Shown one piece after another: positions 1 to 51,033 of a stretch of DNA of 64,000 nt (the first letter of the stretch is position 1; the number at the start of each line of letters is the position of its first letter). A model generated the notes under the pieces. That model did no database searches. It was not told where the DNA came from and worked only from the letters and a program-made list of their open reading frames with translations. The translations under genes and the position numbers were made by a program. Source of the stretch: a virus (Duplodnaviria; Caudoviricetes). The stretch is taken from positions 7,498 through 71,497 of IMG/VR virus record IMGVR_UViG_3300029288_000159. One strand, written 5' to 3'.

Positions 1-1218
1 GCGCTCTACGCTGGCATCGCTCGAGTAGCCGACATGGTTTTCAGACGCAAGAGAAATGATGGTGGCCCCGACTACGCCAAGTTCTATTGCTCGCGCAAGT
101 GCACGAATCTAATCCGGGAAATGGGGCTCTACCGGCGCAAGAAAAACACCGATGGCACGTTCGCCGAACTTCCCGAGGACAAGAACAATCACTGCCTGGT
201 CGCCGGCACGCTGATAACCACTGAGCGCGGCGAGGCGCCAATTGAGTCAGTGACGTCAGCTGATCGCGTTCTGACGAGAAACGGGTGGCAACAGGTAAGA
301 TGGGCTGGGCAAAGTGGTGAGACACGACATACGGTCAAAGTGACTGTCGAGAATCGCATTTTGGAAGGGACCCCCTCTCATAAGATTTGGACGGAAAATC
401 GCGGGTGGGTGCCACTTGACGAACTGCGATACGTGGACACACTGCTCGCATGTCCAAGCATGGGCCCTGCGAGTCACTTGTCTACAATGGTGAACGATTC
501 CGCCGATATCCAGAGTCAAAAAACAGAGAGTTGCGAGTCTACTTCGCGTCACAACGCGGAAGGACATTGCATAGGGCAATCTGGGAAGACGCAAACGGTC
601 CAATCCCAGATGGATGGCACATTCATCACAAGGATCACAACCCGCTCAACAACAATCTCTCTAATCTCGAACCCAAATCGCCTATCAACCATCACGCTGA
701 ACACTGGACCAAAGAGCGAGCAGAATTCGCCAGAAGAAACATCAAACGAATCAGTCCGCTCGCCAAGGCCTGGCATCGAAGTGCAGCCGGACGCGCATGG
801 CATACAGAGCATGGGCGCGACGCGTGGACTAAGCGAACTCCCATCAAAAGGGACTGCGTTCAGTGTGGGCGTGCATTCGAAGACATCGCGCGTCGCGACA
901 CAGACAGGTTTTGCAGCAACAACTGCAAGTCAATGTGGAGACGCAAGAGTGGAGTCGACGACGAAGACCGGATCTGTCCCATCTGCGGAAAGACATTCAG
1001 GATCAATCGGTATAGTCGAACCAAGACCTGTTCGAGCGTGTGCGGTGGAGTACATCACAGCAGAACAATTTGTTCCCGTGTTCGACATTGAAGTAGAAAC
1101 TATTCACGAATTTTTCGCCAATGGGGTTTTGGTTCAGAATTCCACAGATGCCCTTCGCTACGCCCTCTTCGGCCGCTTCGGGCGCCCGCCGAACTACAGG
1201 ACGACGCTGACAGGATGA
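1..1218 (+). CDS. terL: Terminase large subunit, C-terminal nuclease part (5' end outside window), interrupted by an intein
   Basis: Frame open from base 1. Removing 193-1140 gives ...LPEDKNNH|STDALRYALF, the typical terminase C-terminal 'D-x-x-N-H-x-x-D-A-x-R-Y' motif. Lies upstream of the portal. Confidence 0.85.
   Translation, partial: ALYAGIARVADMVFRRKRNDGGPDYAKFYCSRKCTNLIREMGLYRRKKNTDGTFAELPEDKNNHCLVAGTLITTERGEAPIESVTSADRVLTRNGWQQVRWAGQSGETRHTVKVTVENRILEGTPSHKIWTENRGWVPLDELRYVDTLLACPSMGPASHLSTMVNDSADIQSQKTESCESTSRHNAEGHCIGQSGKTQTVQSQMDGTFITRITTRSTTISLISNPNRLSTITLNTGPKSEQNSPEETSNESVRSPRPGIEVQPDAHGIQSMGATRGLSELPSKGTAFSVGVHSKTSRVATQTGFAATTASQCGDARVESTTKTGSVPSAERHSGSIGIVEPRPVRACAVEYITAEQFVPVFDIEVETIHEFFANGVLVQNSTDALRYALFGRFGRPPNYRTTLTG
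193..1140 (+). mobile_element. Intein (316 aa) in terminase
   Basis: Starts CLVAGTLITT (block A), has EGTPSHKIWT (block B TxxH), ends VFDIEVETIHEFFANGVLVQN followed by Ser+1. Penultimate residue is Gln rather than His. Confidence 0.92.
450..1091 (+). CDS. HNH homing endonuclease with C-terminal Cys zinc ribbons, nested out of frame in the intein
   Basis: LHRAIWEDANGPIPDGWHIHHKDHNPLNNNLSNLE is a typical HNH_3 motif; CxxC/CSxxC pairs follow. Frame differs from the terminase/intein frame. Confidence 0.88.
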   Translation: MSKHGPCESLVYNGERFRRYPESKNRELRVYFASQRGRTLHRAIWEDANGPIPDGWHIHHKDHNPLNNNLSNLEPKSPINHHAEHWTKERAEFARRNIKRISPLAKAWHRSAAGRAWHTEHGRDAWTKRTPIKRDCVQCGRAFEDIARRDTDRFCSNNCKSMWRRKSGVDDEDRICPICGKTFRINRYSRTKTCSSVCGGVHHSRTICSRVRH

Positions 1219-1400
1219 GGTGGCAGGCTTTTCTCAATGGCCTAATGCGCGTCCTCGACATCAGATCCACTCCTCAGGTCAGAGAGATTCTCAACCGCGA
1301 CCCCAACGTGGTAGACTCCCTCGCCATCCAGAGTGATTGGCAGCACGTAGTACCCTCACAGCCGTCGCCGGGCGTTGTTCGGGCGAGGAGGAAGTCATGA
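1215..1400 (+). CDS. Hypothetical protein
   Basis: ATGA overlaps with terL stop and with the next start. Confidence 0.45.
   Translation: MRWQAFLNGLMRVLDIRSTPQVREILNRDPNVVDSLAIQSDWQHVVPSQPSPGVVRARRKS
1360..1387 (+). promoter_or_regulatory. Conserved upstream motif, copy 1 (AGCCGTCGCCGGGCGTTGTTCGGGCGAG)
   Basis: Identical 28-mer at 5641-5668 and a variant at 10768-10794; each ends 9-15 nt before a start codon. Confidence 0.6.
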
Positions 1401-1882
1401 CGAATTCACGAGACACGAATGGGCCGCTCGACGCAAATGCATCCGAGGACATGGCCCAGGCGAACCTGGCATGGGGCGACGCACTCGCATCGGCCCACGC
1501 CCTATGGCTCAAATGGCGGAATAGGGCGCTCATGGCAGAAGCGCAATGCAAGATACTCGCGCCCTGGCGAGATCGCTCACTCTCAGCGGAGGCCCGCTGT
1601 CAGGCCCTCGAGGCGGCCATCAGCGCCGCCGGTCTCGAGACCGTAGAGTGGGAGAATCACACAATGGGTCTCGTCAACAGGGGCGAGAGCAAGGACTGGG
1701 CGAACTTCCGTAGCGCACTCAACGACCTCACCACGAGACACCTGAATACCTTCCGGGTCGAGATGGATCATCTTGTCGACGCCTACTCGAAGCATGCGGC
1801 CCGGAAACAGGATGAGACGGAAGTCGAGAAGCTCCATGGATACGTCAAAGCGGCAATCGCAGCCAAGAGGGGGACGCCATGA
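1397..1882 (+). CDS. Hypothetical protein
   Basis: GAGGAGG RBS before ATG 1397 (downstream of the ORF-track start at 1337). Confidence 0.6.
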   Translation: MTNSRDTNGPLDANASEDMAQANLAWGDALASAHALWLKWRNRALMAEAQCKILAPWRDRSLSAEARCQALEAAISAAGLETVEWENHTMGLVNRGESKDWANFRSALNDLTTRHLNTFRVEMDHLVDAYSKHAARKQDETEVEKLHGYVKAAIAAKRGTP

Positions 1883-2119
1883 GCGAGATCTATACTGAGG
1901 CAAGTCGACGCATCGCTACTGGGTCATCGATTTCGACGACTCCCATCAATGCGACGCTTGCAGCAAGACGCGCGGTGCTCGCCAAACGCCTACAGCAACT
2001 GAAAGCCGACCAGGACCACTGGAATCGGATGCACCCCGACGAGGAGCCCATATCTCTCGACTTCGACCTCACGGCCGACGTAGAGGCGGCGCTCGCAGCC
2101 AAGAGGGGGACGCCATGAG
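1857..2119 (+). repeat. 27-bp direct repeats (1857-1883, 2093-2119) flanking one small gene
   Basis: TCGCAGCCAAGAGGGGGACGCCATGAG occurs twice, each copy containing RBS, stop and start. Confidence 0.9.
1879..2118 (+). CDS. Small protein starting with a 20-aa copy of a major capsid segment
   Basis: IYTEASRRIATGSSISTTPI is identical to capsid codons 13857-13916. Confidence 0.7.
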   Translation: MSEIYTEASRRIATGSSISTTPINATLAARRAVLAKRLQQLKADQDHWNRMHPDEEPISLDFDLTADVEAALAAKRGTP

Positions 2120-3014
2120 TGATAGCAAACTAGTGAAGTTCGAGTTCCACGGCGATGAGCTTTGGGCAACCTGGCGGAACGGGATTCTCTGGATCCCCGT
2201 GAAGCGCGTCTGCGAGTGCCTCGGCATCGACGAGAGCAGCCAAAGGCAGCGTCTTTTGCGGTCCAAATGGGCAGTTACGGCCATGGTAACCGTGACTGGA
2301 CTAGATGGAAAGTCGTACTCGATGTTCTGCATCCACATCGACTCCCTGCCGATGTGGCTCACCACGATTCAAGCTTCGCTCGTCAAGGGGAAGCGTGTTC
2401 GAGAGAAGCTGGAACTCTATCAATGCCAGGCGGCCAAGGCACTACGCGACCATTTCATCGGTTCGCAGCAGACCATCAATCCGCAGATGCTTCGAAGCAT
2501 CATCTCGGAGGAGTTGCTCCCGTACAAGCAGGAGAACGCCGATCTCAAGGCCATCGTTTATGACTCGCGCTCCGAAAACATGGAATTGAAGACGACCGTT
2601 CAAGAGTTGAGGACGATCGTCCAAGAGATTCGCGACGGGCAAAATGCAACGATTACCCCGACAGAACTCAAGCTACTTAGCGAAAAACTGGCCGACATCG
2701 CGAGACTGCGGAAGGAGCATGGGAAAGAGGGAGCTCTCTACATCACAGTCATGACTCAGATGTTTCGCTGGGGCGTGCTCAAACAATGCAAGTTGGCCAA
2801 TATCCCATCTACTGCAGTCCCATATGCCTTCAATTGGCTCGACGGGCAACTCGACGAGTTCAAGCGCGAAGAGCGTGACAAGGCCAAACGTGAACGGGCC
2901 GAGAAGAAAGCAAAGGTCGCTCAAGAGGAGGCCAAGGCGGCCAAAGAGAAAGAGTGTCAACAGAAGCTCGACTTCACCGCTTCGGCAGAGGCCGCTGCGA
3001 AGCGGAGCAACTAG
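2115..3014 (+). CDS. Phage antirepressor (P22 Ant N-terminal-like) with coiled-coil C-terminus
   Basis: FEFHGDEL...IPVKRVCECLGIDESSQRQRL...LPMWL...KLELYQ pattern. Confidence 0.75.
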   Translation: MSDSKLVKFEFHGDELWATWRNGILWIPVKRVCECLGIDESSQRQRLLRSKWAVTAMVTVTGLDGKSYSMFCIHIDSLPMWLTTIQASLVKGKRVREKLELYQCQAAKALRDHFIGSQQTINPQMLRSIISEELLPYKQENADLKAIVYDSRSENMELKTTVQELRTIVQEIRDGQNATITPTELKLLSEKLADIARLRKEHGKEGALYITVMTQMFRWGVLKQCKLANIPSTAVPYAFNWLDGQLDEFKREERDKAKRERAEKKAKVAQEEAKAAKEKECQQKLDFTASAEAAAKRSN

Positions 3015-3016
3015 TA

Positions 3017-3331
3017 GTGCCCGAGTCGCAGGCCGTGCGTGACCCGGAGTCACTGCTCTGGGTCACCCCCGGCACCACCGACGGATACGAATCCGGCATC
3101 GCGCTGCACGGTGGGTACGAGCGCGATCTCCCCTGGCTCCGCGCCGAATACGAGAAGATTCTCGCGCGAGGCATGAGCGAAGAGAAGAGCGGCTCTCAAG
3201 TGCCCTGTGTAATAAGCAATGATGACATCAGGATGTTGATATACAAATGGCAGGCAGAGTTGTGTGAGATGTGGCTCAAGAGAGCCATTGAGCGGCTTGA
3301 GCGCGCAGGCATTTCGGCCAACAAACCATAA
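3017..3331 (+). CDS. Hypothetical protein
   Basis: Fills the gap between antirepressor and portal; start uncertain. Confidence 0.45.
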   Translation: MPESQAVRDPESLLWVTPGTTDGYESGIALHGGYERDLPWLRAEYEKILARGMSEEKSGSQVPCVISNDDIRMLIYKWQAELCEMWLKRAIERLERAGISANKP

Positions 3332-3334
3332 AGC

Positions 3335-5104
3335 ATGGACTACTCCCGCCTCGAAGGCATCGAGAAAGCTCTCCTCGCCTTCGAGGCGAATGTCAGCCCG
3401 CGGTATCGCTATTTGGATTGCCTGGAGCGATGGGTAGAGGGCCGGCAGTACGAGGGGCTGACCGATTGGTTCGACACACGCAAGCCGCTTTTCGAGCGGG
3501 CGCCATGCATCGTCTATTTGCTGACCCGAGGAAGTATCGAGTCGAAACGCGACCTCGTGGTGGGCGAGGGACACTTCCCGGAAATCACTGCGTCGCCCGA
3601 TGAGGACGACGAGGACTTCGACGAGGAAACGGGGCTCGGCCCCGAGGACTCGGAGACGCTCGACAGGTTCGTGCAGCGGGCGATGACGAAGGCCGCATTC
3701 GCCCCGGCCATCCGCGAATCACTCGAGCACGGGCAGGGCGTAGGCTCCGCTGTGCTGCTCTTCGGAGCGCGGAAGGGGCGGCCCTTCATCGAGACGACGA
3801 AAGCGAAGTGGAGCGAGCCCACGCTCGACAACGAGGGCAATTGCACGAGACTCGAGATTCGATATCCGTACCTCGATCCCTACAAGGACAAGGCCGGCAA
3901 ATGGAAGGTCCGCGCCAAAATCTACCGGCGCGTTATCGACGAAACGACCGATACTACCTACCGCCCAGCGGACGCCGATGAGCAGGGCCGCGAGCCGGCC
4001 TGGTCAGCCAACCCCGAGCTGACCTATTCACATGGCCTCGGCTTCTGCCCCGTCATCTGGTACCCATTCGCGAAAGGGTGCTCGACCGCAAATCAGATAG
4101 ACGGCAAGGCGGTGCACGATGGGCTGCTAGACGAGATTCGCGCACTTGACCAGGCGCTCTCACAGCGACATCGCGCGGTGCTATTTACTGCCGATCCGCA
4201 GTGGACTGAATGCGGCGTAGTCCCCGGGTCGAATCCATCATCAGTGGGAAACCGAGCGGTGATGCCTGCCACCCAACATGGTGGCCCAGAAGGCCCCGAC
4301 AACAAGGGGACCGGGATGTACATCGAGCCGGGCAACATCGGCCCCGCTCGAAAGAAAGGCCCCGGCGAAGTCTGGCAGTATCCCGACAAGGACACGAAGG
4401 TCCAAATGCATTGCCTTCCCGGCGATGCGGTCAAAGCGACGATGGAACACTCGTCGGACCTGCGTTTGAAACTTTGCGAATTGCTTGCCTATGTCCCACT
4501 CGATCCCGAAAGCATCAAAGGCATCCGCACACTCTCGGGCAAGGCACTTACCGCCTTGCGCAAACGAGAGATCAATCGCTGCAATGGTATTCGAGACGAC
4601 CTTGGGCAGCACTGCATCATCCCTGCCATTCGAATGCTGCTACGACTCTGTGTGGTGCTGGGCTCTCGCGGTAAGGGGGCGATTCGCGTCCCCGGAATAC
4701 AGAAAACTCTCCCAATCCTCCAACGCTTCCTCGAAGAAGACCCCGATCTGAGGCTCATTTGGGGTTCGTACGAAGATGAAGACCCCGAAGAGGAAAAGGC
4801 CACGGTCGATACGGTCAATGTGGCGCTTACTGGGAAGTTTATCACCAAGCGCATGGCCGTGCAGAAGGTGAAAAACATCTTCGGAATCGAGAACGTAGAC
4901 CAGGCAGTCGATATGCTCGAAGAGGAAGCTCAGCAAGCGCAGGAAAAAGAGCTCGATCTGATGGGATCCATGCACAAGCTCGCAAACGACGATGGGACTA
5001 CAGGAAACCAAGGCAGCTCTGGCAGCAATGCTCTTGGCGGAAAGCCGCCTAAGAAAGCGTTTGGGGGCGGCAACAAATCTATGGCAACGAGTCCCCCAAA
5101 GTAG
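3335..5104 (+). CDS. Portal protein
   Basis: 589 aa, downstream of terminase and upstream of a MuF-like gene; disordered C-terminal tail. Confidence 0.75.
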   Translation: MDYSRLEGIEKALLAFEANVSPRYRYLDCLERWVEGRQYEGLTDWFDTRKPLFERAPCIVYLLTRGSIESKRDLVVGEGHFPEITASPDEDDEDFDEETGLGPEDSETLDRFVQRAMTKAAFAPAIRESLEHGQGVGSAVLLFGARKGRPFIETTKAKWSEPTLDNEGNCTRLEIRYPYLDPYKDKAGKWKVRAKIYRRVIDETTDTTYRPADADEQGREPAWSANPELTYSHGLGFCPVIWYPFAKGCSTANQIDGKAVHDGLLDEIRALDQALSQRHRAVLFTADPQWTECGVVPGSNPSSVGNRAVMPATQHGGPEGPDNKGTGMYIEPGNIGPARKKGPGEVWQYPDKDTKVQMHCLPGDAVKATMEHSSDLRLKLCELLAYVPLDPESIKGIRTLSGKALTALRKREINRCNGIRDDLGQHCIIPAIRMLLRLCVVLGSRGKGAIRVPGIQKTLPILQRFLEEDPDLRLIWGSYEDEDPEEEKATVDTVNVALTGKFITKRMAVQKVKNIFGIENVDQAVDMLEEEAQQAQEKELDLMGSMHKLANDDGTTGNQGSSGSNALGGKPPKKAFGGGNKSMATSPPK

Positions 5105-5642
5105 TCTCACACAGACCATCTCGAACTCCACAGCGATTGGGGCACTCGATTCATGGCATCGCGGGGTGTTGTCGGGGCATCGCGATCTCAACTGGATTGC
5201 AGAGCAATTCGATGAGGAGATCGAGGCAGTCGAGCCGCAAGAGCCGACATCACAGATCTCACGCCGGGCATCGTCAATCGGCCTGAACTACGAGCGCGCT
5301 GTTGCTCGATCAGCGGATGATGCAGAACGTGCAAATGCGAAGAATCCGATAGCCAGCGCGATAAGAGAAAACGCATACCGTCTTGACCGCATCGCAGCTA
5401 CCGAAAACTCGATTGCATTCTCATCTGGTCGCCGAGAGTTCATCACTGCATCGGTCATCAATTCAGTTATCAAGCGCTCACGTGTTGTGCAGGTGTGGTT
5501 CGCGCTTCTCGACGCTTGTCGAATTTGTCAGGGGTTGAATGGCGAAAGAGTTCAACTGGGCGGCTCGTGGAACGGGCAGCTGCCCGGGTACGTACACGCA
5601 AGATGTCGATGTATTGATTCGTATGAGGTAACCGAAGAGTAG
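4992..5642 (+). CDS. Minor head (MuF/SPP1 gp7-like) protein; true start probably downstream
   Basis: C-terminal W...D.AC.IC..LNG...P...H.RCRC motif. Confidence 0.7.
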   Translation: MGLQETKAALAAMLLAESRLRKRLGAATNLWQRVPQSSLTQTISNSTAIGALDSWHRGVLSGHRDLNWIAEQFDEEIEAVEPQEPTSQISRRASSIGLNYERAVARSADDAERANAKNPIASAIRENAYRLDRIAATENSIAFSSGRREFITASVINSVIKRSRVVQVWFALLDACRICQGLNGERVQLGGSWNGQLPGYVHARCRCIDSYEVTEE

Positions 5643-5668
5643 CCGTCGCCGGGCGTTGTTCGGGCGAG
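5641..5668 (+). promoter_or_regulatory. Conserved upstream motif, copy 2
   Basis: Identical to 1360-1387; intergenic, upstream of the scaffold-like gene. Confidence 0.6.
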
Positions 5669-5683
5669 AAAAGAGAATGTGTC

Positions 5684-6367
5684 ATGGCTGATGAAGTCAC
5701 TCCCGTTATTGCTCCCACTCCCGTCGCTTCTCCCCCTCCCGCCCCTACGGCTGCTCCCGCTCCTGTTGCCACTGCTGAACCTACGCCCGCTGCCCACATG
5801 CCAGTCCCCGGAGAGCCGGGCTGGCTGAAGTCCAGACTCGATCAAGCTCGACAGACCGAGCGCAATGCCATCCTGGCCGAGCTCGGACTCACCGACATGG
5901 CCGCGGCCAAGACGGCCGTAGATACTGCATCAGCAGCGGCAAACTATACAGCGAGGCTCGCTCAGTTGGAAGCTGTAGCGAAAGTGCAGGCTGGCAACAT
6001 GCTGATGGGTCTTACGGAACAGCAACAAGCCGCGGTGAAGGCTCTTGCCGGCGATGACCCCGCCAAACAGATGCAGACGATCATGGCTCTGCAACCAACC
6101 TGGGGACCTCCGCCGCCCCTCACGATCAAGAGCGAAGACCTGGCAACGAAGATGGCCACGGCAGGGACGATTGCTGCATCTAGTCCTCCGGCGCCCGTTC
6201 AGATAGTCCCCGGCGCGACCACCGCACCACCTCCAATTGCTCCCGCCGGCGCTTCCGCCGCCCCGCCCGACCATCGAGCCATCTACGAAGTAATGTCGGA
6301 AACCAACCCGTTTGCAGCCGCCGAGTACGGCGCGCTGCATCCCGAAATCTACACCCCGAGGACCTAA
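5684..6367 (+). CDS. Putative scaffolding protein (Pro/Ala-rich, helical core)
   Basis: Position after the MuF-like gene and composition. Confidence 0.55.
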   Translation: MADEVTPVIAPTPVASPPPAPTAAPAPVATAEPTPAAHMPVPGEPGWLKSRLDQARQTERNAILAELGLTDMAAAKTAVDTASAAANYTARLAQLEAVAKVQAGNMLMGLTEQQQAAVKALAGDDPAKQMQTIMALQPTWGPPPPLTIKSEDLATKMATAGTIAASSPPAPVQIVPGATTAPPPIAPAGASAAPPDHRAIYEVMSETNPFAAAEYGALHPEIYTPRT

Positions 6368-6370
6368 CCT

Positions 6371-6673
6371 ATGGCCACCGAGCGTTACTCGCCAGACTCC
6401 ACTCAGCCGGCCGACGACGTGATTGAGTACTCGTCGTTCATCGGCGGGATCGACTTCGTGGCAACGCTCGGACAACCTGTGCGTCTCATCCAAGTCATCA
6501 CCGCAGGGTCGGGCAGCCTCGTCGTCGAGACACGTCGTAGTGCTGCCACCAACGGTGGTGCTGTGAACCGAACACTCACAGGATTGATTGCAGGCGACCG
6601 CATCGGCCCCGTGCAAATCAACAAGATCATCGAGAGCGGCACGAACGTAACGAAGGTGCGAGTCTACCTGTAA
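6371..6673 (+). CDS. Hypothetical virion protein
   Basis: Tightly packed in the head operon. Confidence 0.55.
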   Translation: MATERYSPDSTQPADDVIEYSSFIGGIDFVATLGQPVRLIQVITAGSGSLVVETRRSAATNGGAVNRTLTGLIAGDRIGPVQINKIIESGTNVTKVRVYL

Positions 6674-9150
6674 TGCACCTCGGGTTCGACTACGCGATCG
6701 ACGAGATGGGTGGCATGAGCTCTGGATTGCTACCAATCGGTAGTTCCGATGCGTCCGCATCGGTGGGTCCATTTGCCACTGCAAGCGACTATTGGGCATC
6801 GGAGACTTTGGCCGGCGGAGACATGACTGCGGGCAATTCGATCGTTGCTCTGATCGAGTTGCTTCCGACGGCGTGCGGCGCAATAGTCGCAATTTTGGCA
6901 CATGCGAGTGCAACTACTGGATGGGAGCTTACTGCGCTGGTTACTACTGGTGTCGCAGCGATGTCATTCAAGGCCGTTGGTGGCTCTACGTATCAACTTG
7001 GGGCCATATCTCCTGGCCTGCACGCGATCGCTATTACGGCCACTGCTGCGGGACCGATTCGTTCATCAATGGACGGATTCACGGTCTATCAGGCCAATGC
7101 AACCAATCCCATCTCATCCAACAGCTCAAGCGCAGTCATCAGCTTAGGGAATTGCGTGCAAGTTGCGTCGCAACCATGCAAGACAATCTGTGTGCTCGAG
7201 TACGCACACATTGCGGCTGAGATGTCTGATGCAGAACTCGTGGCGGCCTCGCTTTCAACCATCGCGACGAACAGATACATATTGCCAGACTCGGTGCGCT
7301 CTCACGCCTCTCTGACTACTGGATTATCTATTAGTAGAGATTGGAACGGCGTGACCTCTACCATAACGCCAGGCGGTGGCATCGATAGACCTGTCTTCAC
7401 GATACATGGGTCGACACCATTCAACACCATCCCAGAAGAAACAGTTTACGAGATTCCACAGGCGTACTGGGGAGACAACGCACTCTGGCAAGCACAGACA
7501 AATTACGTGCTTCGGAATCAGTTTGCTAGGGCCAAATGCGCAGTCGCATCAGGTGCAACGAATACATCTCTGGCGTCGTCTACAACATTCGCCTCAGGAT
7601 TTTCGTCGCCAGTCACAGACGTGTGTTGGGACGGGAACAACTTCTACGCTGTGGACTACACGTCGAATGACGTAAAGGCGATCACGCCGGCGGGAGTGGT
7701 AACCACTTTCGCCACAGGGCTATCGCATCCGTATGGCATCTGCTGGGCTGGCAATAACTTCTACGCCACATCTGGGAACACTATCGTTCAGATTACTCCA
7801 GGAGGAGTTGTCACTACGTTTGCAAGTGGGTTCGCTACGCCAATTGGGATCTGCTGGGATGGCAGCAACTTTTACGTCTCGAACTACAGCGGGAATAACA
7901 TCAAGAAGATCACGCCGGCTGCAGAGGTTACTACATTCGCCTCTGTCACCACTGCGCGATGGGTCATCTGGGATGGTAGCAATTTCTACGCTATCAGCGG
8001 CACAACTACCATCGTCAAAATAACCCCAGCAGGAGTAGTTTCTACCGTCACGGCCGGTTTGATCGGCGCAGACGCGATGTGCTGGGATGGCACCAACTTC
8101 TACGTGACTAGTAATAGCAATGGAATTGTCTATAGAGTCTCTCCTGCCGGAGTAGTGACGATAGCGCTATATGGTTTGGGCCAACCGTACGGGATTAGTT
8201 TTCTGAATGGTTCGATGTATGCTTGTGATGGTGCGCAGATCATCAGAATCAAGTTACTCTCGCATCGAATAGCAGTCGACCTGTATTGCAATTATCTAGC
8301 AGAAGAGCGAATAGGAGTCTTCGGCAATGATGTGTACGAGTGCTCCATAGGCAGATCTAGCGCATCCAGCACTGCCTTGTTGCAGACTGCTGACTATTAC
8401 ATGCCGGCGACCAACTCAACCATTGATGTAGTAGATGGCACTCAGACCCGCAACGCGCCGCCAACGATCTGGGGAACTTTTGTGCGCGCAGTGCGATGTT
8501 CGGCTGGAGTGCTGACATGTACTAGACCGATGGCTCCTATGCATCGAGTAGTCATCTATCAAGATTCGATCTCGTGGGGATATGTGACCGTAACCCCATT
8601 CGTCCAATCGTGGGGAATGCTTCTGCGCTCGCATGGGCTCGGGGCTGGATGGGACATTACTGAAGAGGCATACGGTACTCGAGCATTAACGGATGACGTT
8701 ACATCCAATAGTCACGATGTGGATGCGACGAAGTTGGCCGCATTGGTCGGACGACTTGCCAGCGCGTGCGATGGCATATCGTCGAATGTGCTGATCGTGG
8801 CGATGGGCACCAATGATTGCGGCCATTCACTTCCATCGGGATACGCAACCAGAGCAATCGGTTTTGGCATTCTGTATGCAGCATTTCTGGATGCATTCCA
8901 TGCTTTACGCCCAGATGTGCAGATCGTGTGCATCACGCCGCTCACACGCGCGGTGATCGAAGCTGATTTAGTCCCGTACAGATCAGAAATTGTGACTGAT
9001 GTGACTGATCGGTCTGCATGGGGCAATGTCACTACCATGGATGGTCCTTCCATGGTTACTTATCCTGCCAATTTCACAGACGGCACTCATCCTAACGATG
9101 CAGGACATGTCCAGTTCGAGGCTGCGGTTCGTGCAGTGCTTGGATACTGA
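6673..9150 (+). CDS. Multidomain protein: lectin-like N-terminus, beta-propeller (CWDGxNFY repeats), C-terminal SGNH/GDSL esterase
   Basis: Six ~40-aa xWxGxNFY repeats; SGNH blocks YQDSISWG, MGTND and DGTHPNDAGH. Confidence 0.75.
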   Translation: MHLGFDYAIDEMGGMSSGLLPIGSSDASASVGPFATASDYWASETLAGGDMTAGNSIVALIELLPTACGAIVAILAHASATTGWELTALVTTGVAAMSFKAVGGSTYQLGAISPGLHAIAITATAAGPIRSSMDGFTVYQANATNPISSNSSSAVISLGNCVQVASQPCKTICVLEYAHIAAEMSDAELVAASLSTIATNRYILPDSVRSHASLTTGLSISRDWNGVTSTITPGGGIDRPVFTIHGSTPFNTIPEETVYEIPQAYWGDNALWQAQTNYVLRNQFARAKCAVASGATNTSLASSTTFASGFSSPVTDVCWDGNNFYAVDYTSNDVKAITPAGVVTTFATGLSHPYGICWAGNNFYATSGNTIVQITPGGVVTTFASGFATPIGICWDGSNFYVSNYSGNNIKKITPAAEVTTFASVTTARWVIWDGSNFYAISGTTTIVKITPAGVVSTVTAGLIGADAMCWDGTNFYVTSNSNGIVYRVSPAGVVTIALYGLGQPYGISFLNGSMYACDGAQIIRIKLLSHRIAVDLYCNYLAEERIGVFGNDVYECSIGRSSASSTALLQTADYYMPATNSTIDVVDGTQTRNAPPTIWGTFVRAVRCSAGVLTCTRPMAPMHRVVIYQDSISWGYVTVTPFVQSWGMLLRSHGLGAGWDITEEAYGTRALTDDVTSNSHDVDATKLAALVGRLASACDGISSNVLIVAMGTNDCGHSLPSGYATRAIGFGILYAAFLDAFHALRPDVQIVCITPLTRAVIEADLVPYRSEIVTDVTDRSAWGNVTTMDGPSMVTYPANFTDGTHPNDAGHVQFEAAVRAVLGY

Positions 9151-9159
9151 GGATTAATC

Positions 9160-9819
9160 ATGTCGGCAACATATGACGTATGGGGACCTGTCGAAAGTGG
9201 TCTCTTTGAGGCATACTATGAGGCGGGGCAGGGATATACCATGTCAGGGGGAGGAGTCCAATATTGGGATGATCTAACTGGACATGGTCACACTTTTGGA
9301 TTCCAGATATTGCCGACCCCGATAGCGTCAGACGCTGCATATGATGGCCGGCCGACACTTGACATGTCCCCTAACTGTTACGGGTTTTCTACTGGGTGGG
9401 CTGGCTTTTCAAACCCAGTGACCATATTTGTTGCCGGAGAATGCCATGGCTCTTCAGGCGGATTCATATCATTGGCTAGTTACGCTGACGGGTTATTGTA
9501 TGCATTATCATCCAGCACAGTGTCGCTGTATACGTCAGGTTTGCAGATAACAGATACCGGATTGGACGCGAACCCAACATGCCTAATAGGTGTCCTGAAT
9601 GGCGCGAGTAGCAGACTGTACGTTAAAACACGAACAGCAGTGACAGGTACAACTAAAGCCATTACGTCATCGAATGGCATATGGCTTGGGAAGTGGGGCA
9701 CAAGCCCATTGAATGGGAAAATAGCCTGTGCCGGGATTGCTCTGTCGCAATCTACGACGATGGACAATCTGATCATAAGGTGGATGGCCCATAGATATAA
9801 ATTGATTTTGAGGGCATGA
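9160..9819 (+). CDS. LamG/concanavalin-like domain protein
   Basis: WDDLTGHGH...DGRPTL...TIFVAG pattern seen in phage lectin-like domains. Confidence 0.5.
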   Translation: MSATYDVWGPVESGLFEAYYEAGQGYTMSGGGVQYWDDLTGHGHTFGFQILPTPIASDAAYDGRPTLDMSPNCYGFSTGWAGFSNPVTIFVAGECHGSSGGFISLASYADGLLYALSSSTVSLYTSGLQITDTGLDANPTCLIGVLNGASSRLYVKTRTAVTGTTKAITSSNGIWLGKWGTSPLNGKIACAGIALSQSTTMDNLIIRWMAHRYKLILRA

Positions 9820-10208
9820 TGAGCGAAGGACGCATGTATCAGATGACCCCGATGGGCATCAGGGAGGGCAATGGTCTCATCAAGCTCGACGTACCTGTCG
9901 AGAAGATGATCGATGTACGCCCCACGACAGTCTTCCAGCGCACCCCTGTGCAGCCTCCCGAGGAGGACGCCCCGGCGCAGGACATCAAGCCCTCAAAGTC
10001 CATCCCCACCAAGCTTCGTCCGGGCGACATCCTGAAGATGGCGCAAGCGCGTGTGCGCGAGATTCGCGTCGAATTGCGCGAGCATAAGCGCCTAGAGAAA
10101 GAGCTCGCAGAGCTCGAAAGACTCATCGCAGCCGCCAAGGCAACTCCTCTGGCAGCCGTCCGTCCAATCAATCCAGCCCGCCGAACCGGCGGAGGAGAAA
10201 AGCCATGA
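9816..10208 (+). CDS. Hypothetical coiled-coil protein
   Basis: Overlapping start/stop with neighbours. Confidence 0.55.
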   Translation: MMSEGRMYQMTPMGIREGNGLIKLDVPVEKMIDVRPTTVFQRTPVQPPEEDAPAQDIKPSKSIPTKLRPGDILKMAQARVREIRVELREHKRLEKELAELERLIAAAKATPLAAVRPINPARRTGGGEKP

Positions 10209-10579: not shown

Positions 10580-10584
10580 GAGCC

Positions 10585-10725
10585 ATGCCTTTCAAGTCGA
10601 AAGCGCAAAAGGGCTATCTGTACGTGCATCATCCGACGGTAGCCAAAAAGTTCCAGGCAGACACATCGAAGAAGCAGGAAGCCAAACTGCCTGAGCACGT
10701 GAAGAAGAGCCCGAAGAAAAAGTAG
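10585..10725 (+). CDS. Small basic protein (46 aa, MPFKSKAQKGYLY...), below the ORF-track cutoff
   Basis: Manual translation; the MPFKSKAQ...LPEHV pattern resembles small proteins common in phage head regions. Confidence 0.65.
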   Translation: MPFKSKAQKGYLYVHHPTVAKKFQADTSKKQEAKLPEHVKKSPKKK

Positions 10726-10741
10726 GGTTGCCTTCGTTCCG

Positions 10742-10766: not shown

Positions 10767-10767
10767 C

Positions 10768-10794: not shown

Positions 10795-10803
10795 AAAGAA
10801 GCA

Positions 10804-13532: not shown

Positions 13533-14630
13533 ATGCCTGGATATTCACGGGCAACGATGCCCAGCGAGTTCTACGACATCACGAAGGACATGCTGCTCAG
13601 GCAGCCCGAGCCGCAGTACGTGTTTTGGCTTATGTTCCGTGATGCAATGCGCGTGCAACTCACGCCTCCATCGAGCATTGGATTGCAGCTGCCCGGTCGT
13701 ACGGTGGCAGGCGTCGGAGCGGACTATGTCACTCCAGAGCGAGACCGGCTCATGCTATCCGACCCGCTCACCACTGAGCTCATCGCCGCTAAGGTCGACT
13801 TCGCCGCTCTTCCTGGGCAGACGGTCCGCATCAATCGGCCGCTGTTCACGAACACAATCTATACCGAGGCGAGTCGCCGAATCGCTACTGGGTCGTCGAT
13901 TTCGACAACTCCCATCACGATTAGCGGGCAGCAAACCGACCTCACCCTCTTCCGCTATGCTGGTCCCTACGACACCGTGAACAGCTGCGTGGCGCCCTAC
14001 GCTATCGAGGCATTCGATGCGAATATGGGCGTACACAATGCCGCCCGCATCGTGGGCACTCACCTCGCTCGAGACTTCCATCGCTTCGTTGACGCTGTGC
14101 ATGTGGCGCTTCTCGATCTCAGTGCCACTACGGTCTACCCGGCCGGTATGACGGCGGACAATGATGCGACGACAGCCGGAGCGTTCCCATTCACGTACGC
14201 GCTTGTGTCGGACGTGGAACAGCAGATGGATACGGCGAATCTGCCGAGGTTCTCCGACGGTCATCGCATCATGGTTTGCACTCCAGTCCAGAAGCAACAA
14301 CTTCGGAATGATGTACAATACCAGCGCGCCAGCCAGTACTTCCGAGAGATGAACATCTTGTTCGGCCAGACCTACTTCGGGTCGGTCAACAACTTTCATC
14401 TCTTCGTGAACAACACCAACACCATCACGCCCAACGGATCGAGCGTCAACATCCACCACGGTTACGCCATGTGTCCAGGCGTTTTCCTCGGCGGCATGGG
14501 CCGACCTCCTGTCGTCATCCCGGCCAGCGATGACAACTACGGCGAGACCGTGAAGGTCATCTGGAAGGGTGACCTCTCATTCGGTCTGTCGGATGACCGA
14601 TTCGTGTATGGCGTGCACTCATCTGCCTAG
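13533..14630 (+). CDS. Major capsid protein
   Basis: 365 aa with PGQTVRINRP motif reminiscent of N4-gp56-type capsids; followed by head-tail genes. Confidence 0.8.
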   Translation: MPGYSRATMPSEFYDITKDMLLRQPEPQYVFWLMFRDAMRVQLTPPSSIGLQLPGRTVAGVGADYVTPERDRLMLSDPLTTELIAAKVDFAALPGQTVRINRPLFTNTIYTEASRRIATGSSISTTPITISGQQTDLTLFRYAGPYDTVNSCVAPYAIEAFDANMGVHNAARIVGTHLARDFHRFVDAVHVALLDLSATTVYPAGMTADNDATTAGAFPFTYALVSDVEQQMDTANLPRFSDGHRIMVCTPVQKQQLRNDVQYQRASQYFREMNILFGQTYFGSVNNFHLFVNNTNTITPNGSSVNIHHGYAMCPGVFLGGMGRPPVVIPASDDNYGETVKVIWKGDLSFGLSDDRFVYGVHSSA

Positions 14631-48223: not shown

Positions 48224-48353
48224 CGATGGTTCGCGCCAACTCCTTCGTGAATCGTTCGATCTCCACTATCGCTACCGTGGCTCTGCGATAGGCTGCCACG
48301 AGTTCATGCGCTCTGTTTACTGAGTTGCTCAGATCACTTATGGCTTGGTTCAT
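48165..48353 (-). CDS. Small coiled-coil protein
   Basis: ATGA overlap with the nuclease stop. Confidence 0.5.
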   Translation of the reverse strand: MNQAISDLSNSVNRAHELVAAYRRATVAIVEIERFTKELARTIDDIHEIETRPLDSEEEIPF

Positions 48354-49996
48354 TGCTTTCTCCGTCGCTCTTCGTAGCGGACCTGCGTGATCGTCTCCGT
48401 CGCACCGACCTCGCGCAACGACGTCATGACTCGCTCGAGTGTGTCTGCCACCGAAAGTCCTCGGGCTCGAGCCGCATCCTTGATCGCCTCCTTGCTTGTG
48501 CTCGGCCGTACGGCTTCGGGGAACTCGAACATGCGAACGAGACCATCAGCGTTGAGGCGAATCCGCTCAACAGGAACTTCGTGGCGACCCCACACGCCCG
48601 TGTCGGTACGGATGCCTCCGTTCGCGTCGGCCCATGTCTGTAGAGCTCTCTGGACGTCATCTACAGCCATCCTCACACGTTGGAGACGAGACAACATCCA
48701 CGCTGCATGCCTCTCGTCCTGGATGAGTTCTGGGAGCGCTACAACCGGGTAGTCCATCTCCGGGTTCAGTGATGGGTCGACTTGTTCGATGCTCTCTCTG
48801 GTTTCGGGGCAGAAAGCGCGAGCGGGGCAGTATCTGCACCACGCTCCCGGATTGGGTGCCAGCTTTTCATCCATGGCTCTCTGGATGTCTGCTAGCGTCG
48901 CTCGCACTTCGAGGAAGTCAGCCGGGCCGAGTACTGCAGTCTCGGCCCGCACCATGTCTTCGTCCACGAACGCAAGCATGATCCGAATCGTCTGCGCACC
49001 TATCCATGCAGCTACAGCCGTCCCCAGAAACCGCATCTGCATGTTGTGCTCGATCGCCTCTGTGCCTTCGACCTGTCCAGTTTTCCAATCGATGACAGTG
49101 GGGCATGAGTCCCCGAGCACCAGATCTGCTGCGCCAGACCATTCGCCCGGCTCAAGGAATTCGAACACCTTGCGTGGGTCTTTGCCCGGGTGTAGCCGTG
49201 CACTGTGAGTTCTCGGATCGTAGATGACTGGATTCTCCACGCTCAGGATGGGTTGCGACAGGAACGGCGCCATCTCGCGTTCCCACGCGGCGATCCAGTT
49301 ACGGACTGTCTTCATGCTCTCCTTGAGAGAGATGCTCATGTCCTTTGCGATCTGATCAGGCCGCCGCGCCATACTGTTCGCTCGGTCGGCAGCGTAGGCG
49401 TGGAAGAGGCGTCCCATGCTCGCCTCCTCCGATGCCTCGCTGTCGTCCGCGGGCCAGACCGCATCTGGAGACCAGAATGCCCAGACGCAATGAACTGCGA
49501 TGTGGAGCCGGGAAGCTGTCGGGCGATGTTGGCGTAGTTCAGTCGATGTCGTCGATGTCATCGTAGGCTCATGCCAGGACACAGATATCGACATGCGCCG
49601 CAAAGTTACTGCTGCGCCCAGTACTATTGCTGTATTATCAAGTACGAGATCTCCGGGTACATCCAGTTGCATCAACAGTGATCCGTCTGCGGAGAATGTG
49701 CGACCAAACGAGGCTTTCCCGGTCCCACATGCAATTGCAGAAATCGGATTCGGAATGCTGATGATGCGCTGCTTGACAACGCCTTCTGTCGCTCGCTCGA
49801 TAACGCTGTTTGCCACTTGCGAGAATGCGGGTACTTCGAAGTGCAATTCCGCAAGCAGTCTGTTCTCAATGAGAATGGAGTCAACGTTAGGCATGTGGCC
49901 GGAATAGATCCGTATCAATCCAGCGTCATGCCTTGCGCCGAGTGCAGTCAGGTTTCTGACTTGTTTACACGCTGCAAGCCGTTCGGCATCTATCAT
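48350..49996 (-). CDS. PD-(D/E)XK (RecE/Cas4-like) exonuclease with an N-terminal virion-type domain
   Basis: PTASRL..., GAADLV...VIDWKTG, PGAWCRYCPAR..CP; adjacent to recT; N-terminal ~140 aa align to ORF 37542-37940. Confidence 0.8.
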   Translation of the reverse strand: MIDAERLAACKQVRNLTALGARHDAGLIRIYSGHMPNVDSILIENRLLAELHFEVPAFSQVANSVIERATEGVVKQRIISIPNPISAIACGTGKASFGRTFSADGSLLMQLDVPGDLVLDNTAIVLGAAVTLRRMSISVSWHEPTMTSTTSTELRQHRPTASRLHIAVHCVWAFWSPDAVWPADDSEASEEASMGRLFHAYAADRANSMARRPDQIAKDMSISLKESMKTVRNWIAAWEREMAPFLSQPILSVENPVIYDPRTHSARLHPGKDPRKVFEFLEPGEWSGAADLVLGDSCPTVIDWKTGQVEGTEAIEHNMQMRFLGTAVAAWIGAQTIRIMLAFVDEDMVRAETAVLGPADFLEVRATLADIQRAMDEKLAPNPGAWCRYCPARAFCPETRESIEQVDPSLNPEMDYPVVALPELIQDERHAAWMLSRLQRVRMAVDDVQRALQTWADANGGIRTDTGVWGRHEVPVERIRLNADGLVRMFEFPEAVRPSTSKEAIKDAARARGLSVADTLERVMTSLREVGATETITQVRYEERRRKQ

Positions 49997-51033
49997 TCGA
50001 ATCCCTCCCGGATTGGATCATGATCCGCCCCGTCCACCACCTCATTCTCTGTCGGCACGCGTGGGCGTTCTGTCGAGTAATGGACCGGCTTGAACGAGCC
50101 GCCCCGTTGCTCCTGCACGTCCTGCACGACGCCGTCCTGATCGACGGTCACCGTCTCGGGTTGCGGGTCCTCCGTACCCAGCATTTCCGCCGCGCTGGGC
50201 TGCGCAGGCGGGAGCGCCGCGGCCTGGAGGGCCTCGGATAACGGGACGAGTCCTCGGTCGTTCTGGCGGGTCGCCATGTTGCCCTGCGCCTCGTCCGAGT
50301 GGGAGAGCGCCATGGCCACCGATTCAGCCACCTCCGGCTCGACAGGGAGATACTTCACCAGTCTTCTCACAGCGGTTTTCCTGCTCATCTCGTCGGGCCA
50401 GTCGGCCCATGGCCCCGATTGCGCCGCAGAGCACGCCCGGATGGCCTCGAGGTCGCCACGCGTGCAGATCTCGACCTGCTTGCACCCATCCTTGAAGGTG
50501 GCGATCGCGTAGGAGGCGATGATTTGTCCTCTGTCTTCCATGCCCAGATACGGCACATGCTCAATTTTGGAGTCAGTCCCATAACGGACGTCGAACACAG
50601 GATCCTTCTCACGTACGACGTGAGCCTCGATACTTGCGATCAACTTGGAGCGTCGCGCGATGTCGAGCAGCCCGCGATATCCAGGGTCGAAGGAGCATTC
50701 CCATCGGTGCGGCGTGACCTTCTTGTTCTGTCGCGGGACGAGATATCCGCGACCGTTCACGCCACCCGGAGTGATGCCTAGCGCCGCCGCGTCCATGAGC
50801 GCCTTCAGCACGCTCTCGGGCGTGCACTCACCAAGGCGGGGTTGACGACTCGCCGCCAGGCACGCCAGGCGGATCATCTCCACTGGATTCACCTGCTTCG
50901 AGGCCACATCGTTCAACCGGTCGATGTTCGCCATCAACCAATCTTTCAACGTTGCCGGCCGGGTTTGCTGTTTCCGCTGACTCGGTGGCGTTGGCGATGG
51001 GGGATTCGGAGAACTCTGACGTTGCTGTGCCAT
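49993..51033 (-). CDS. recT: RecT-family single-strand annealing recombinase
   Basis: L.ECTPESVLKALMDAAALGITP...GYLVP...GYRGLLDIARRS...WPDEMSRKTAVRRLVKYLP. Confidence 0.92.
   Translation of the reverse strand: MAQQRQSSPNPPSPTPPSQRKQQTRPATLKDWLMANIDRLNDVASKQVNPVEMIRLACLAASRQPRLGECTPESVLKALMDAAALGITPGGVNGRGYLVPRQNKKVTPHRWECSFDPGYRGLLDIARRSKLIASIEAHVVREKDPVFDVRYGTDSKIEHVPYLGMEDRGQIIASYAIATFKDGCKQVEICTRGDLEAIRACSAAQSGPWADWPDEMSRKTAVRRLVKYLPVEPEVAESVAMALSHSDEAQGNMATRQNDRGLVPLSEALQAAALPPAQPSAAEMLGTEDPQPETVTVDQDGVVQDVQEQRGGSFKPVHYSTERPRVPTENEVVDGADHDPIREGFE

What the first reader, a model, noticed from the sequence alone, without database searches (positions are those of the whole stretch)
1857..2119. 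Repeat-flanked mini-cassette encoding an exact 20-aa piece of the major capsid protein
Seen: 1888-1947 matches capsid 13857-13916 at 54/60 nt; all six differences are synonymous third positions, so IYTEASRRIATGSSISTTPI is identical. The gene is bracketed by 27-bp direct repeats containing RBS, stop and start. Known: several anti-phage systems are triggered by capsid proteins. Inference: a capsid-epitope decoy or assembly modulator, or a fragment captured from a related phage. The repeats would allow gain or loss by RecT-type recombination.
Basis: partly seen in the sequence, partly recalled or inferred. Interest (0 to 1): 0.8.

Follow-up and report, generated by a model that had tools for sequence, protein, structure and literature searches.

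The report
Capsid peptide grafted onto accessory protein
An uncultured landfill phage has a small accessory gene whose front end is an in-frame copy of 20 codons of its own capsid gene, joined to a conserved but unnamed protein module that in bacteria belongs to toxin-antitoxin-type anti-phage modules; the copy is real, but whether the capsid piece does anything is untested.

Summary
Window 1888-1948 matches capsid gene 13857-13917 at 55/61 nt, in frame in both genes, and all six differences are synonymous. A 27-nt exact repeat (45 nt at 87%) lies at 1857-1883 and 2093-2119.

The "mini-cassette" is not a free-standing capsid fragment. Residues 25-78 of the 79-aa ORF belong to a widespread, unannotated small-protein family with a DHWNxxHPxEEPI motif. 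Only residues 4-23 come from the capsid protein, and they replace the family's short, variable N-terminal tail.

In bacteria a ~160-aa long form of the family sits directly after an Xre-HTH/M78-peptidase gene that matches PD-lambda-2 component B. Short forms like this one sit in phage-like contexts.

The gene lies in a 2.1-kb accessory island (ORFan, chimera, Ant-like gene) between terminase and portal, which abut in two relatives. The repeat is a duplicated gene junction (C-terminal tail, RBS, ATGA stop/start overlap). In a near-identical wetland phage a different gene follows position 2119.

The all-synonymous pattern rejects a neutrally decaying in-place copy (P about 0.01). It does not separate selection on the peptide from import from a roughly 10%-diverged relative.

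The scan has noted capsid-piece copies in small genes of other phages; I did not check those notes. Decoy and assembly roles remain untested.

The parts
1..1218 (+). 3' part of the large terminase gene with an intein; left border of the accessory island
   Evidence: PHROG terminase large subunit hits and Pfam Hint_2 / Intein_splicing. In relatives G003 and G005 the gene in this position is followed directly by the portal gene.
1360..1387 (+). 28-nt element (two CGGGCG units) just upstream of ORF-A; copies also lie before the genes starting at 5684 and about 10804
   Evidence: Exact repeat 1360-1387 = 5641-5668, third copy at about 10768-10807; alignment. A role as a shared regulatory site is inferred.
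1397..1882 (+). ORF-A, a 161-aa ORFan; its last 16 residues resemble the tail of the chimeric ORF
   Evidence: Only itself among 5.8 billion proteins. No Pfam or PHROG hit. Only the last 16 aa align to the mini-ORF. No homology to the family profiles.
1842..1886 (+). Junction repeat, copy 1 (exact core 1857-1883): tail of ORF-A, RBS, ATGA overlap, first codons of the chimeric ORF
1879..2118 (+). Chimeric 79-aa ORF: MSE + capsid-derived 20-mer + family module
1888..1947 (+). Graft: in-frame copy of capsid codons 109-128, 54/60 nt, all differences synonymous
1948..2109 (+). Module of the unnamed DHWNxxHPxEEPI small-protein family; it starts exactly where the graft ends
   Evidence: Family profile A2 hits the phage genome once, at G000 9445-9606 = window 1948-2109, E 3e-27. 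54 homologues in the exhaustive HMMER search.
2078..2122 (+). Junction repeat, copy 2 (exact core 2093-2119): native tail of the family gene, RBS, ATGA overlap, start of the Ant-like gene. Position 2119 is a mosaic breakpoint in a near-identical phage.
   Evidence: X2 loose end at 2119
2115..3014 (+). Ant-like gene (P22 antirepressor N-terminal domain)
   Evidence: Pfam P22_AR_N E 8.4e-25; PHROG 524 anti-repressor Ant E 9.9e-27. A 92%-identical copy in run X3 is also preceded by a family-type gene.
3335..5104 (+). Portal gene; right border of the island
   Evidence: Weak PHROG 64 portal hit; 49% and 38% identical portal homologues in relatives.
13533..14630 (+). Major capsid protein gene (HK97 fold); source of the graft
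13857..13916 (+). Source segment, codons 109-128. In the model it is a short helix (112-115) plus an extended stretch, lying between hairpin 84-104 and strand 131-144 and before the spine helix 170-194.
48350..51033 (-). RecT (49993-51033) and its PD-(D/E)XK nuclease partner (48350-49996): the phage's own short-homology recombination system
   Evidence: Pfam RecT E 3.1e-33; PDDEXK_1 E 1.1e-13

Best explanation
ORF 1879-2118 is a chimeric accessory gene. Shown: a short-form member of an unnamed small-protein family (DHWNxxHPxEEPI module, residues 25-78) has its variable N-terminal tail replaced by an in-frame 60-nt copy of the phage's own lineage's capsid gene. Shown: it lies in a 2.1-kb island (ORFan, chimera, Ant-like gene) inserted between terminase and portal. 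Inferred: the genes are translationally coupled through ATGA overlaps, and the operon follows the same 28-nt element that precedes two genes in the structural-gene region, so it is probably made late. The 27/45-nt repeat is a duplicate of the family gene's own 3' junction (tail, RBS, ATGAG), now also closing ORF-A. Inferred: one or a few illegitimate, patchwork recombination events created the graft and the duplicate, because the graft has no flanking homology. Partly shown: the conserved junction has since served as a crossover point for swapping the downstream gene between related phages. Inferred function: the active part is the conserved module. In bacteria its long form is the gene directly after a PD-lambda-2B-like Xre-HTH/M78-peptidase gene; in this phage and in the X3 relative the short form is paired with an antirepressor-type gene. 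The short form therefore most likely binds or mimics a partner in that kind of regulatory or defence circuit. The capsid 20-mer is most likely a tolerated passenger in a tail that varies freely in the family. Its amino-acid identity would then come from import of the island from a roughly 10%-diverged relative, or from modest purifying selection, not from a purpose-built decoy.
For: Family membership. Exhaustive HMMER found 54 homologues at E<1e-3, all matching residues about 25-77 (alignment). Profile-profile comparison with the long forms gives 99.6%, E 1.8e-23. The profile hits the phage once, at 1948-2109, abutting the graft.
Variable tail. The invariant Trp lies at position 11-66 (median 32) in 33 short homologues, against 48 here.
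Source of the graft. It is 20/20 identical to the phage's own capsid protein. The nearest other capsid proteins (80% identical) differ at 2-4 of the 20 residues, and relatives at 42-61% keep the segment only partly.
Island. A terminase-position gene abuts the portal gene in G003 and G005. ORF-A and the chimera occur nowhere else.
Junction as a joint. An X2 contig matches up to 2119 and then continues with unlike sequence. X3 has a family-type gene followed by a 92%-identical Ant gene but a different tail. RecT and a nuclease are present.
Bacterial context. 24 long-form loci have the B-like gene directly upstream. A Paraburkholderia plasmid has the order RelE/ParE toxin, HigA (370 aa), long form, beside a type I restriction gene and an Abi gene. 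PD-lambda-2 is described in PMC9519451. Short forms sit beside phage methylase or terminase genes.
Donor availability. An X5 contig covers 13283-13991 with 65 differences in 709 nt.
Recurrence. The genome holds at least two other, older copies of virion-protein segments in other genes.
Against: Six of six differences being synonymous is unlikely for a neutral copy made in place (P 0.007-0.011). In the neighbouring duplicated tail, by contrast, 2 of 14 codons changed residue. Both points fit selection on the peptide, i.e. a function for the graft. No donor capsid gene carrying the graft's six variant letters was found. No other contig encodes this 19-mer, though near-identical records are withheld by the tools. 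The function of the family is unknown, and PADLOC's PD-lambda-2_C model does not hit it. Expression is not shown. The X2 evidence rests on low-depth contigs and I could not read the contig itself.
Confidence: 0.55

Rival explanations
1. Functional capsid mimic. The 20-mer is kept by selection and presents a linear piece of the capsid protein outside the capsid. It could act as a decoy or competitor for a host factor or defence sensor that recognises that capsid region, or as a modulator of head assembly, with the conserved module as carrier or effector.
For: All six differences are synonymous (P about 0.01 under in-place neutrality), whereas the adjacent duplicated tail has two residue changes. 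The graft must be translated with the module, because there is no in-frame ATG after it. The operon sits behind the element that also precedes two genes in the structural-gene region. The carrier module is homologous to a component of TA-type defence-like modules. The scan has noted other small phage genes that copy capsid pieces (unchecked AI notes). From general knowledge, short capsid peptides can be sensed: the T4 Gol peptide activates Lit, and CapRel senses a major capsid protein.
Against: The gene is a one-off, so conservation cannot be tested. Import from a diverged relative explains the synonymous pattern equally well. A copy identical to the phage's own capsid segment would compete with its own assembly. 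There is no structural evidence that residues 109-128 are a surface or interface epitope; the model only places them before the spine helix.
Confidence: 0.3
2. Recognition tag. The Ser/Thr-rich 20-mer (TGSSISTTPI) is a linear motif read by the phage's GT2-TPR glycosyltransferase (11193-12332). The graft would make the small protein a second substrate or a competitor.
For: A GT2 + TPR gene lies in the structural-gene region upstream of the capsid gene, and TPR domains bind linear peptides (general knowledge). The peptide is Ser/Thr-rich.
Against: The segment is conserved in capsid relatives, and only one of the relative loci I fetched (L008) has a GT2-TPR homologue. There is no evidence that the capsid is glycosylated, or at this site.
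Confidence: 0.05
3. Dead remnant. The ORF is not expressed or has no function, and is rearrangement scar tissue awaiting deletion between the repeats.
For: ORFan status of the chimera and of ORF-A. The flanking repeats would delete exactly 236 nt and restore an ORF-A/Ant junction.
Against: The reading frame is intact, with a strong RBS and ATGA coupling. The family module keeps every conserved residue (D44, W48, N49, H52, P53). No nonsynonymous change occurs in the graft. No deleted form was seen in contigs of four runs (contigs miss rare variants).
Confidence: 0.07
4. Nucleic-acid-level role. The 60-nt homology acts as RNA (a shared operator or antisense target) or as a DNA recombination substrate, not as a peptide.
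For: 90% nucleotide identity between the two segments.
Against: Neither strand of either copy folds better than shuffles in a consistent way (z 0.44, -0.52, -0.96, -2.15), and the structures differ between copies. No promoter- or terminator-like site occurs on either strand of the island. The differences fall strictly on third positions, which points to a protein-level constraint. Recombination between the copies would delete 12 kb of essential genes.
Confidence: 0.03

Closest known systems
Third (C-position) gene of PD-lambda-2-type HigB / HigA-peptidase modules (Vassallo et al. 2022, PMC9519451)
   Same: The ORF's module (residues 25-78) is homologous to the C-terminal about 54 residues of the ~160-aa proteins encoded directly after PD-lambda-2B-like Xre-HTH/M78-peptidase genes. 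In a Paraburkholderia plasmid that protein is the third gene after a RelE/ParE toxin and a 370-aa HigA.
   Different: The phage protein has only the C-terminal module, and the phage has no A or B gene. PADLOC's PD-lambda-2_C model does not match the family, so the equivalence is by position and by the B-like neighbour, not by sequence. No defence or anti-defence activity was tested.
Short conserved boundary sequences at phage mosaic junctions, and Red/RecT-type recombination between diverged phages (PMC3029335; PMC2327257)
   Same: A short identical sequence sits at two gene borders. It precedes two different genes here and apparently a third in run X2's near-identical phage. The phage encodes RecT.
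   Different: Here the sequence is a lineage-specific duplicate of one gene's tail/RBS/start, not a linker shared widely among phages. It is absent from IMG/VR and altered in the X3 relative.
Morons / accessory islands between conserved late genes (general knowledge of lambdoid and HK97-like phages)
   Same: Extra genes are inserted between terminase and portal, which abut in relatives.
   Different: No promoter or terminator of its own was detected. The island is read by translational coupling behind a phage-specific 28-nt element.
T4 Gol peptide (a ~29-residue stretch of capsid protein gp23 that activates the Lit protease) and capsid sensing by CapRel (general knowledge)
   Same: These show that a short linear capsid segment can act on its own with host defence proteins.
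   Different: Those peptides are part of the capsid gene itself. No phage gene that separately encodes such a peptide is described there, and nothing links residues 109-128 of this capsid protein to any sensor.
Other capsid-piece copies in small phage genes noted by this scan (e1-5347887, e1-5336724, e1-3283814; unchecked AI notes)
   Same: A small non-structural phage gene carries a copy of a segment of the phage's own major capsid protein.
   Different: Those copies are older and diverged, and sit on other carriers (a Tat leader, or next to the polymerase). This one is identical in protein and is joined to the DHWN module.

Membership tests
Unnamed DHWNxxHPxEEPI small-protein family (short form) | Significant sequence match over the ~54-residue module, including the invariant D, W, N, H and P residues | tested here: met
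   54 hits at E<1e-3 with 45-63% identity. D44 and N49 are invariant, W48/H52/P53 are at least 90% conserved. Profile hit E 3e-27 at 1948-2109.
Unnamed DHWNxxHPxEEPI small-protein family (short form) | Small size (about 55-100 aa) with a short, variable N-terminal tail before the module | tested here: met
   The ORF is 79 aa. The tail is about 16 residues longer than the family median but within its range.
PD-lambda-2 defence system (A HigB-like, B HigA-HTH + peptidase, C accessory) | A B-type Xre-HTH/M78-peptidase gene adjacent | tested here: not met
   No PD-Lambda-2_B match anywhere in the 71.5-kb phage record. The neighbours are an ORFan and an Ant-like gene.
PD-lambda-2 defence system (A HigB-like, B HigA-HTH + peptidase, C accessory) | Sequence match to the curated component C model | tested here: not met
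   No PADLOC hit for the mini-ORF or for long forms at E<=0.01. Only the upstream partner of the long forms matches component B (E 2e-45).
PD-lambda-2 defence system (A HigB-like, B HigA-HTH + peptidase, C accessory) | Protects against phage by abortive infection | not testable with these tools
   Needs expression in a host.
HK97-fold major capsid protein (for the source gene 13533-14630) | HK97 fold, and a position in the head-gene order | tested here: met
   Model pLDDT 80.8; Foldseek probability 1.00 to the GP4, N4 and Pan3 capsids. In relatives a homologue of ORF 5684-6367 (scaffold-like by position) lies directly upstream of the capsid gene.
Capsid-derived decoy / trigger peptide (Gol-like) | The peptide binds or activates a host sensor | not testable with these tools
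   Host unknown; no assay possible.
Diversity-generating retroelement template/variable repeat pair | Differences confined to adenines of one copy | tested here: not met
   Only 3 of 6 (mini copy) or 2 of 6 (capsid copy) differing sites are A.

The most novel reading that the evidence does not exclude
The short-form DHWN proteins of phages are anti-defence mimics of the C-terminal module of the third component of PD-lambda-2-like HigB/HigA-peptidase defence modules. In this phage the mimic carries, under selection, the capsid segment that such a system (or another capsid sensor) recognises. It would then be a capsid-peptide bait fused to a defence-component mimic, and part of a wider, undescribed class of phage genes that display pieces of their own capsid protein.
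Probability: 0.12. Interest if true: 0.85.

Novelty: new variant of a known kind. Interest (0 to 1): 0.55.

Why it matters
This is a dated example of how a phage builds a new protein. Sixty nucleotides of an essential structural gene were pasted in frame onto a small accessory gene, next to a duplicated gene junction that then served as a crossover point between related phages.

The work also turned up an unannotated protein module that links two contexts. One is a conserved operon across several bacterial phyla, where the long form directly follows an Xre-HTH/M78-peptidase gene matching PD-lambda-2 component B. The other is small phage genes. That gives the poorly understood third component of such defence-like modules a testable phage counterpart.

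If the capsid peptide proves to be under selection, this would join the other capsid-piece copies the scan has flagged. Together they would point to a recurring, undescribed strategy of capsid mimicry by phages.

Tried and rejected
- Close relatives carrying the cassette: none found. The mini-ORF and ORF-A match only themselves among 5.8 billion proteins. No mini-ORF relative in IMG/VR. The 24-nt junction core is absent from IMG/VR. A degenerate pattern for the 19-mer gave 0 hits in viral and metagenome contigs. No close Ant relative in IMG/VR. No DNA match among GenBank phages, and no tblastn match for the mini-ORF there.
- Nearest capsid relatives in metagenome contigs are 62% identical or less, and 80% in the protein database. 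The test of whether a relative's capsid gene carries the graft's six letters could therefore not be run.
- No RNA holder was listed among sequencing runs, so there is no evidence on expression either way.
- Read laying showed no joint that deletes the cassette. All runs were contigs, which drop rare variants, so this is not evidence of absence.
- The first capsid model, from 8 sequences, was too poor to use (pLDDT 37.7). It was redone with 80 sequences.
- PDB sequence searches gave nothing usable for the capsid protein or the family. Pfam, PHROG and NCBIfam have no model for the family. ESM Atlas hits scored below 0.8.
- ORF-A as a split-off N-domain of a long form: rejected (hhalign probability 0.1%). 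ORF-A as a family paralogue: rejected except for its last 16 residues.
- DGR-type mutagenesis: rejected.
- RNA structure or antisense role: no support.
- The X2 continuation sequence is not elsewhere in this genome or in IMG/VR.
- The toxin of the Paraburkholderia module has no detectable homologue in the 41 genome loci. Most long-form loci therefore look like two-gene B-C modules, or have a different A.
- Capsid relatives G002-G006 have no family member (these records are fragments).

Full report
**Source.** The window is bases 7498-71497 of a 71.5-kb IMG/VR virus record that is linear and 97% complete by CheckV. The best holder among public runs is a landfill metagenome. It is probably the source: a Logan contig of about 70 kb matches with 0 differences at depth about 40.

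**1. The observation.**
- Window 1888-1948 matches 13857-13917 at 55/61 nt (E 2.4e-13).
- Both copies are read in the same frame. One is codons 4-23 of ORF 1879-2118 (79 aa). The other is codons 109-128 of ORF 13533-14630 (365 aa).
- The six differences are all third-position and synonymous.
- The larger ORF is the major capsid protein. It gives a weak PHROG hit to major head protein, has 368 homologues, and an AlphaFold model built from 80 sequences has pLDDT 80.8 and matches HK97-fold capsids of phages GP4, N4 and Pan3 at Foldseek E 1e-12 to 1e-13.
- The 27-nt repeat occurs exactly twice, with none in 100 shuffles, and extends to 45 nt at 87%.
- It contains the last codons of the upstream gene (AA[I/L]AAKRGTP, stop), the RBS AAGAGGGGGA, and an ATGA stop/start overlap.

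**2. What the ORF is.**
- The word-indexed search found only the ORF itself.
- An exhaustive HMMER pass over 1.84 billion representatives found 54 further proteins at E<1e-3, with 45-63% identity. Every one aligned to residues about 25-77 and none to the capsid-like part.
- The alignment shows a helix-like RRxxIAxxLxQLKxD stretch followed by DHWNRxHPxEEPIxIDxDLTxDVE. D44 and N49 are invariant; W48, H52 and P53 are nearly so.
- Homologues have a short, non-conserved N-terminal tail. The invariant Trp lies at median position 32 (range 11-66) in 33 short homologues, against 48 here.
- A profile of the family hits the phage genome once, at window 1948-2109 (E 3e-27), which is the base after the graft ends.
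- The ORF is therefore MSE + 20 capsid residues + a complete family module. There is no in-frame ATG after the graft, so if the module is made, the graft is its N-terminus.
- The family has no Pfam, PHROG, NCBIfam, PADLOC or PDB match.

**3. The family elsewhere.**
- A motif scan of 185,579 species genomes returned 41 loci in several phyla, including Acidobacteriota, Pseudomonadota, Verrucomicrobiota, Chloroflexota (Dehalococcoidia), Myxococcota and Thermodesulfobacteriota.
- Most encode a ~160-aa long form whose C-terminal 54 residues match the short forms (hhalign 99.6%, E 1.8e-23).
- In 24 loci the gene directly upstream on the same strand is a ~380-410-aa protein with Xre HTH and M78 (ImmA/IrrE) peptidase domains.
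- Three such upstream proteins that I scanned match PADLOC PD-Lambda-2_B over nearly its full length, at E 2e-45 to 7e-43.
- On a Paraburkholderia plasmid the annotated order is RelE/ParE toxin, 370-aa HigA-family protein, 161-aa long form. A type I restriction gene and an Abi gene lie nearby.
- That is the layout reported for PD-lambda-2, where the third component is needed for defence but not for neutralising toxicity (PMC9519451).
- PADLOC's component C model does not match the family, so the equivalence is positional.
- Short forms lack the B-like neighbour. In the loci I scanned they lie next to phage-type DNA methyltransferase or terminase genes.
- The phage itself has no B-like gene.

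**4. The neighbourhood.**
- Upstream is the 3' part of an intein-bearing large terminase gene. Downstream is the portal gene.
- In two capsid relatives the terminase-position gene abuts the portal gene. Window 1219-3334 is therefore an inserted island.
- It holds ORF-A (161 aa, an ORFan), the chimera, an Ant-like gene (P22_AR_N E 8.4e-25), and a further small ORF.
- ORF-A is unrelated to the family apart from its last 16 residues. Its tail is therefore the secondary copy of the family gene's tail.
- A 28-nt element with two CGGGCG units lies 9-15 nt before ORF-A, before the scaffold-like gene at 5684, and before a gene near 10804. This suggests common regulation, which is inferred.
- No sigma-70-like promoter or intrinsic terminator is seen in the island.

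**5. Evidence from other runs (all are contigs).**
- X2 (a wetland metagenome from another study) holds near-identical pieces of this phage at low depth, including cover within 1501-2500. One contig matches up to 2119 and then runs on for 42 unlike bases. Read in frame after the shared ATGAG, these spell a different protein start (MSKKDDGIIKI).
- X3 has a 1588-nt contig at about 92% identity over 2008-3173, which covers the motif part of the family gene plus Ant. Upstream of 2008 its DNA is unlike, but it still translates to a family-type IAEGLRQLKI. It has indels across 2090-2105.
- The pair 'family gene then Ant' therefore exists in another lineage. The exact 27-mer is specific to this lineage, and 2119 is a mosaic breakpoint.
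- X5 (another landfill) has a contig over 13283-13991 with 65 differences in 709 nt. Relatives about 9% diverged in the capsid gene therefore exist.
- No joint that removes the cassette was listed.

**6. Age and selection.**
- If the copy had been made in place and then drifted neutrally while the capsid gene accepted only synonymous changes, six of six synonymous differences would have P 0.007-0.011.
- Two explanations remain. One is purifying selection on the grafted peptide. The other is that the graft, or the whole island, came from a relative whose capsid gene had diverged synonymously by about 10%.
- The nearest capsid proteins I could see (80% identical) differ at 2-4 of the 20 residues, so the donor was this lineage or a very close one.
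- The duplicated tail beside the graft has two residue changes in 14 codons (K/E and I/L) while the graft has none in 20. This leans weakly towards constraint on the graft.
- However, the repeat's identity profile is uneven: 27/27 in the exact core against 13/18 in the segment 5' of it. I do not rely on it for dating.
- The graft has no flanking homology to its source, so it arose by illegitimate joining, not by RecT-type homologous exchange. The phage does encode RecT and a PD-(D/E)XK nuclease, which could act on the 27-nt junction.

**7. Where the peptide lies in the capsid protein.**
- In the model, residues 109-128 form a short helix (112-115) and an extended stretch, with pLDDT 73-83.
- They lie between a hairpin (84-104) and a long strand (131-144), upstream of the spine helix (170-194).
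- That places them in the N-arm / E-loop / P-domain part of the fold and not in the A-domain. I could not assign them to a named element or to an interface.
- The segment is conserved among relatives, with Y110, T111, R115, I123 and T125 invariant among the eight aligned.

**8. Verdict.**
- The finding is a real and unusually clean case of an in-frame graft of a capsid-gene segment onto an accessory gene, with a duplicated junction that marks a recombination joint.
- The decoy idea is neither supported nor excluded.
- My best reading, at 0.55, is a tolerated by-product on a functional carrier module. A selected capsid mimic stands at 0.3.
- The genome contains two older copies of virion-protein segments in other genes (in line with earlier notes). 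The scan has also flagged capsid-piece copies in other phages (unchecked). Both keep the mimic reading alive.

Noticed in passing
window 34-1218 and 450-1091: The terminase intein (Hint_2 / Intein_splicing) is open across a stretch in which a complete HNH_3 endonuclease ORF (213 aa, E 1.1e-13) lies in a different frame.
   Followed up: partly
window 1360-1387, 5641-5668, about 10768-10807: A 28-nt element, GCCGTCGCCGGGCGTTGTTCGGGCGAG, with two CGGGCG units 11 nt apart lies 9-15 nt upstream of three start codons. Two copies are identical. It is a candidate shared regulatory site.
   Followed up: partly
L035-L075 (genome loci); L077 3501-3986: There is an unannotated, conserved two-gene operon across several bacterial phyla: a PD-lambda-2B-like Xre-HTH/M78 peptidase gene followed by a ~160-aa protein ending in the DHWNxxHPxEEPI module (24 loci). 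On a Paraburkholderia plasmid it is preceded by a RelE/ParE toxin gene and lies beside a type I restriction gene and an Abi gene.
   Followed up: partly
window 5684-13532: In most capsid relatives the homologue of ORF 5684-6367 (scaffold-like by position) lies directly before the capsid gene. Here about 7 kb lie between them, including an 825-aa ORF and a GT2 + TPR glycosyltransferase (11193-12332). One relative (L008) has the GT2-TPR gene and the 12517 homologue upstream of the scaffold-like gene instead.
   Followed up: partly
window 26045-26467 (-) vs 27085-28725; 37542-37940 vs 48350-49996 (-): Two older intragenomic copies of protein segments: 37% identity over 123 aa, and 28% over 124 aa (the latter at the N-terminus of the RecT-partner nuclease). 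With the capsid graft that makes three such copies in one genome.
   Followed up: partly
window 17485-17505 and 40698-40718: A 21-nt exact repeat between the end of ORF 16778-17533 and the 1318-aa ORF 37996-41952.
   Followed up: no
window 63450-63965: A dense array of 36-40-nt exact direct repeats at irregular spacing, inside the ORF that runs off the window end.
   Followed up: no
L015/L018 (G003 5047-6785); L017/L019 (G002 1-748): In two relatives the portal match is split into two consecutive ORFs (residues about 1-472 and 468-583 of this phage's 589-aa portal), whereas here it is one ORF.
   Followed up: no
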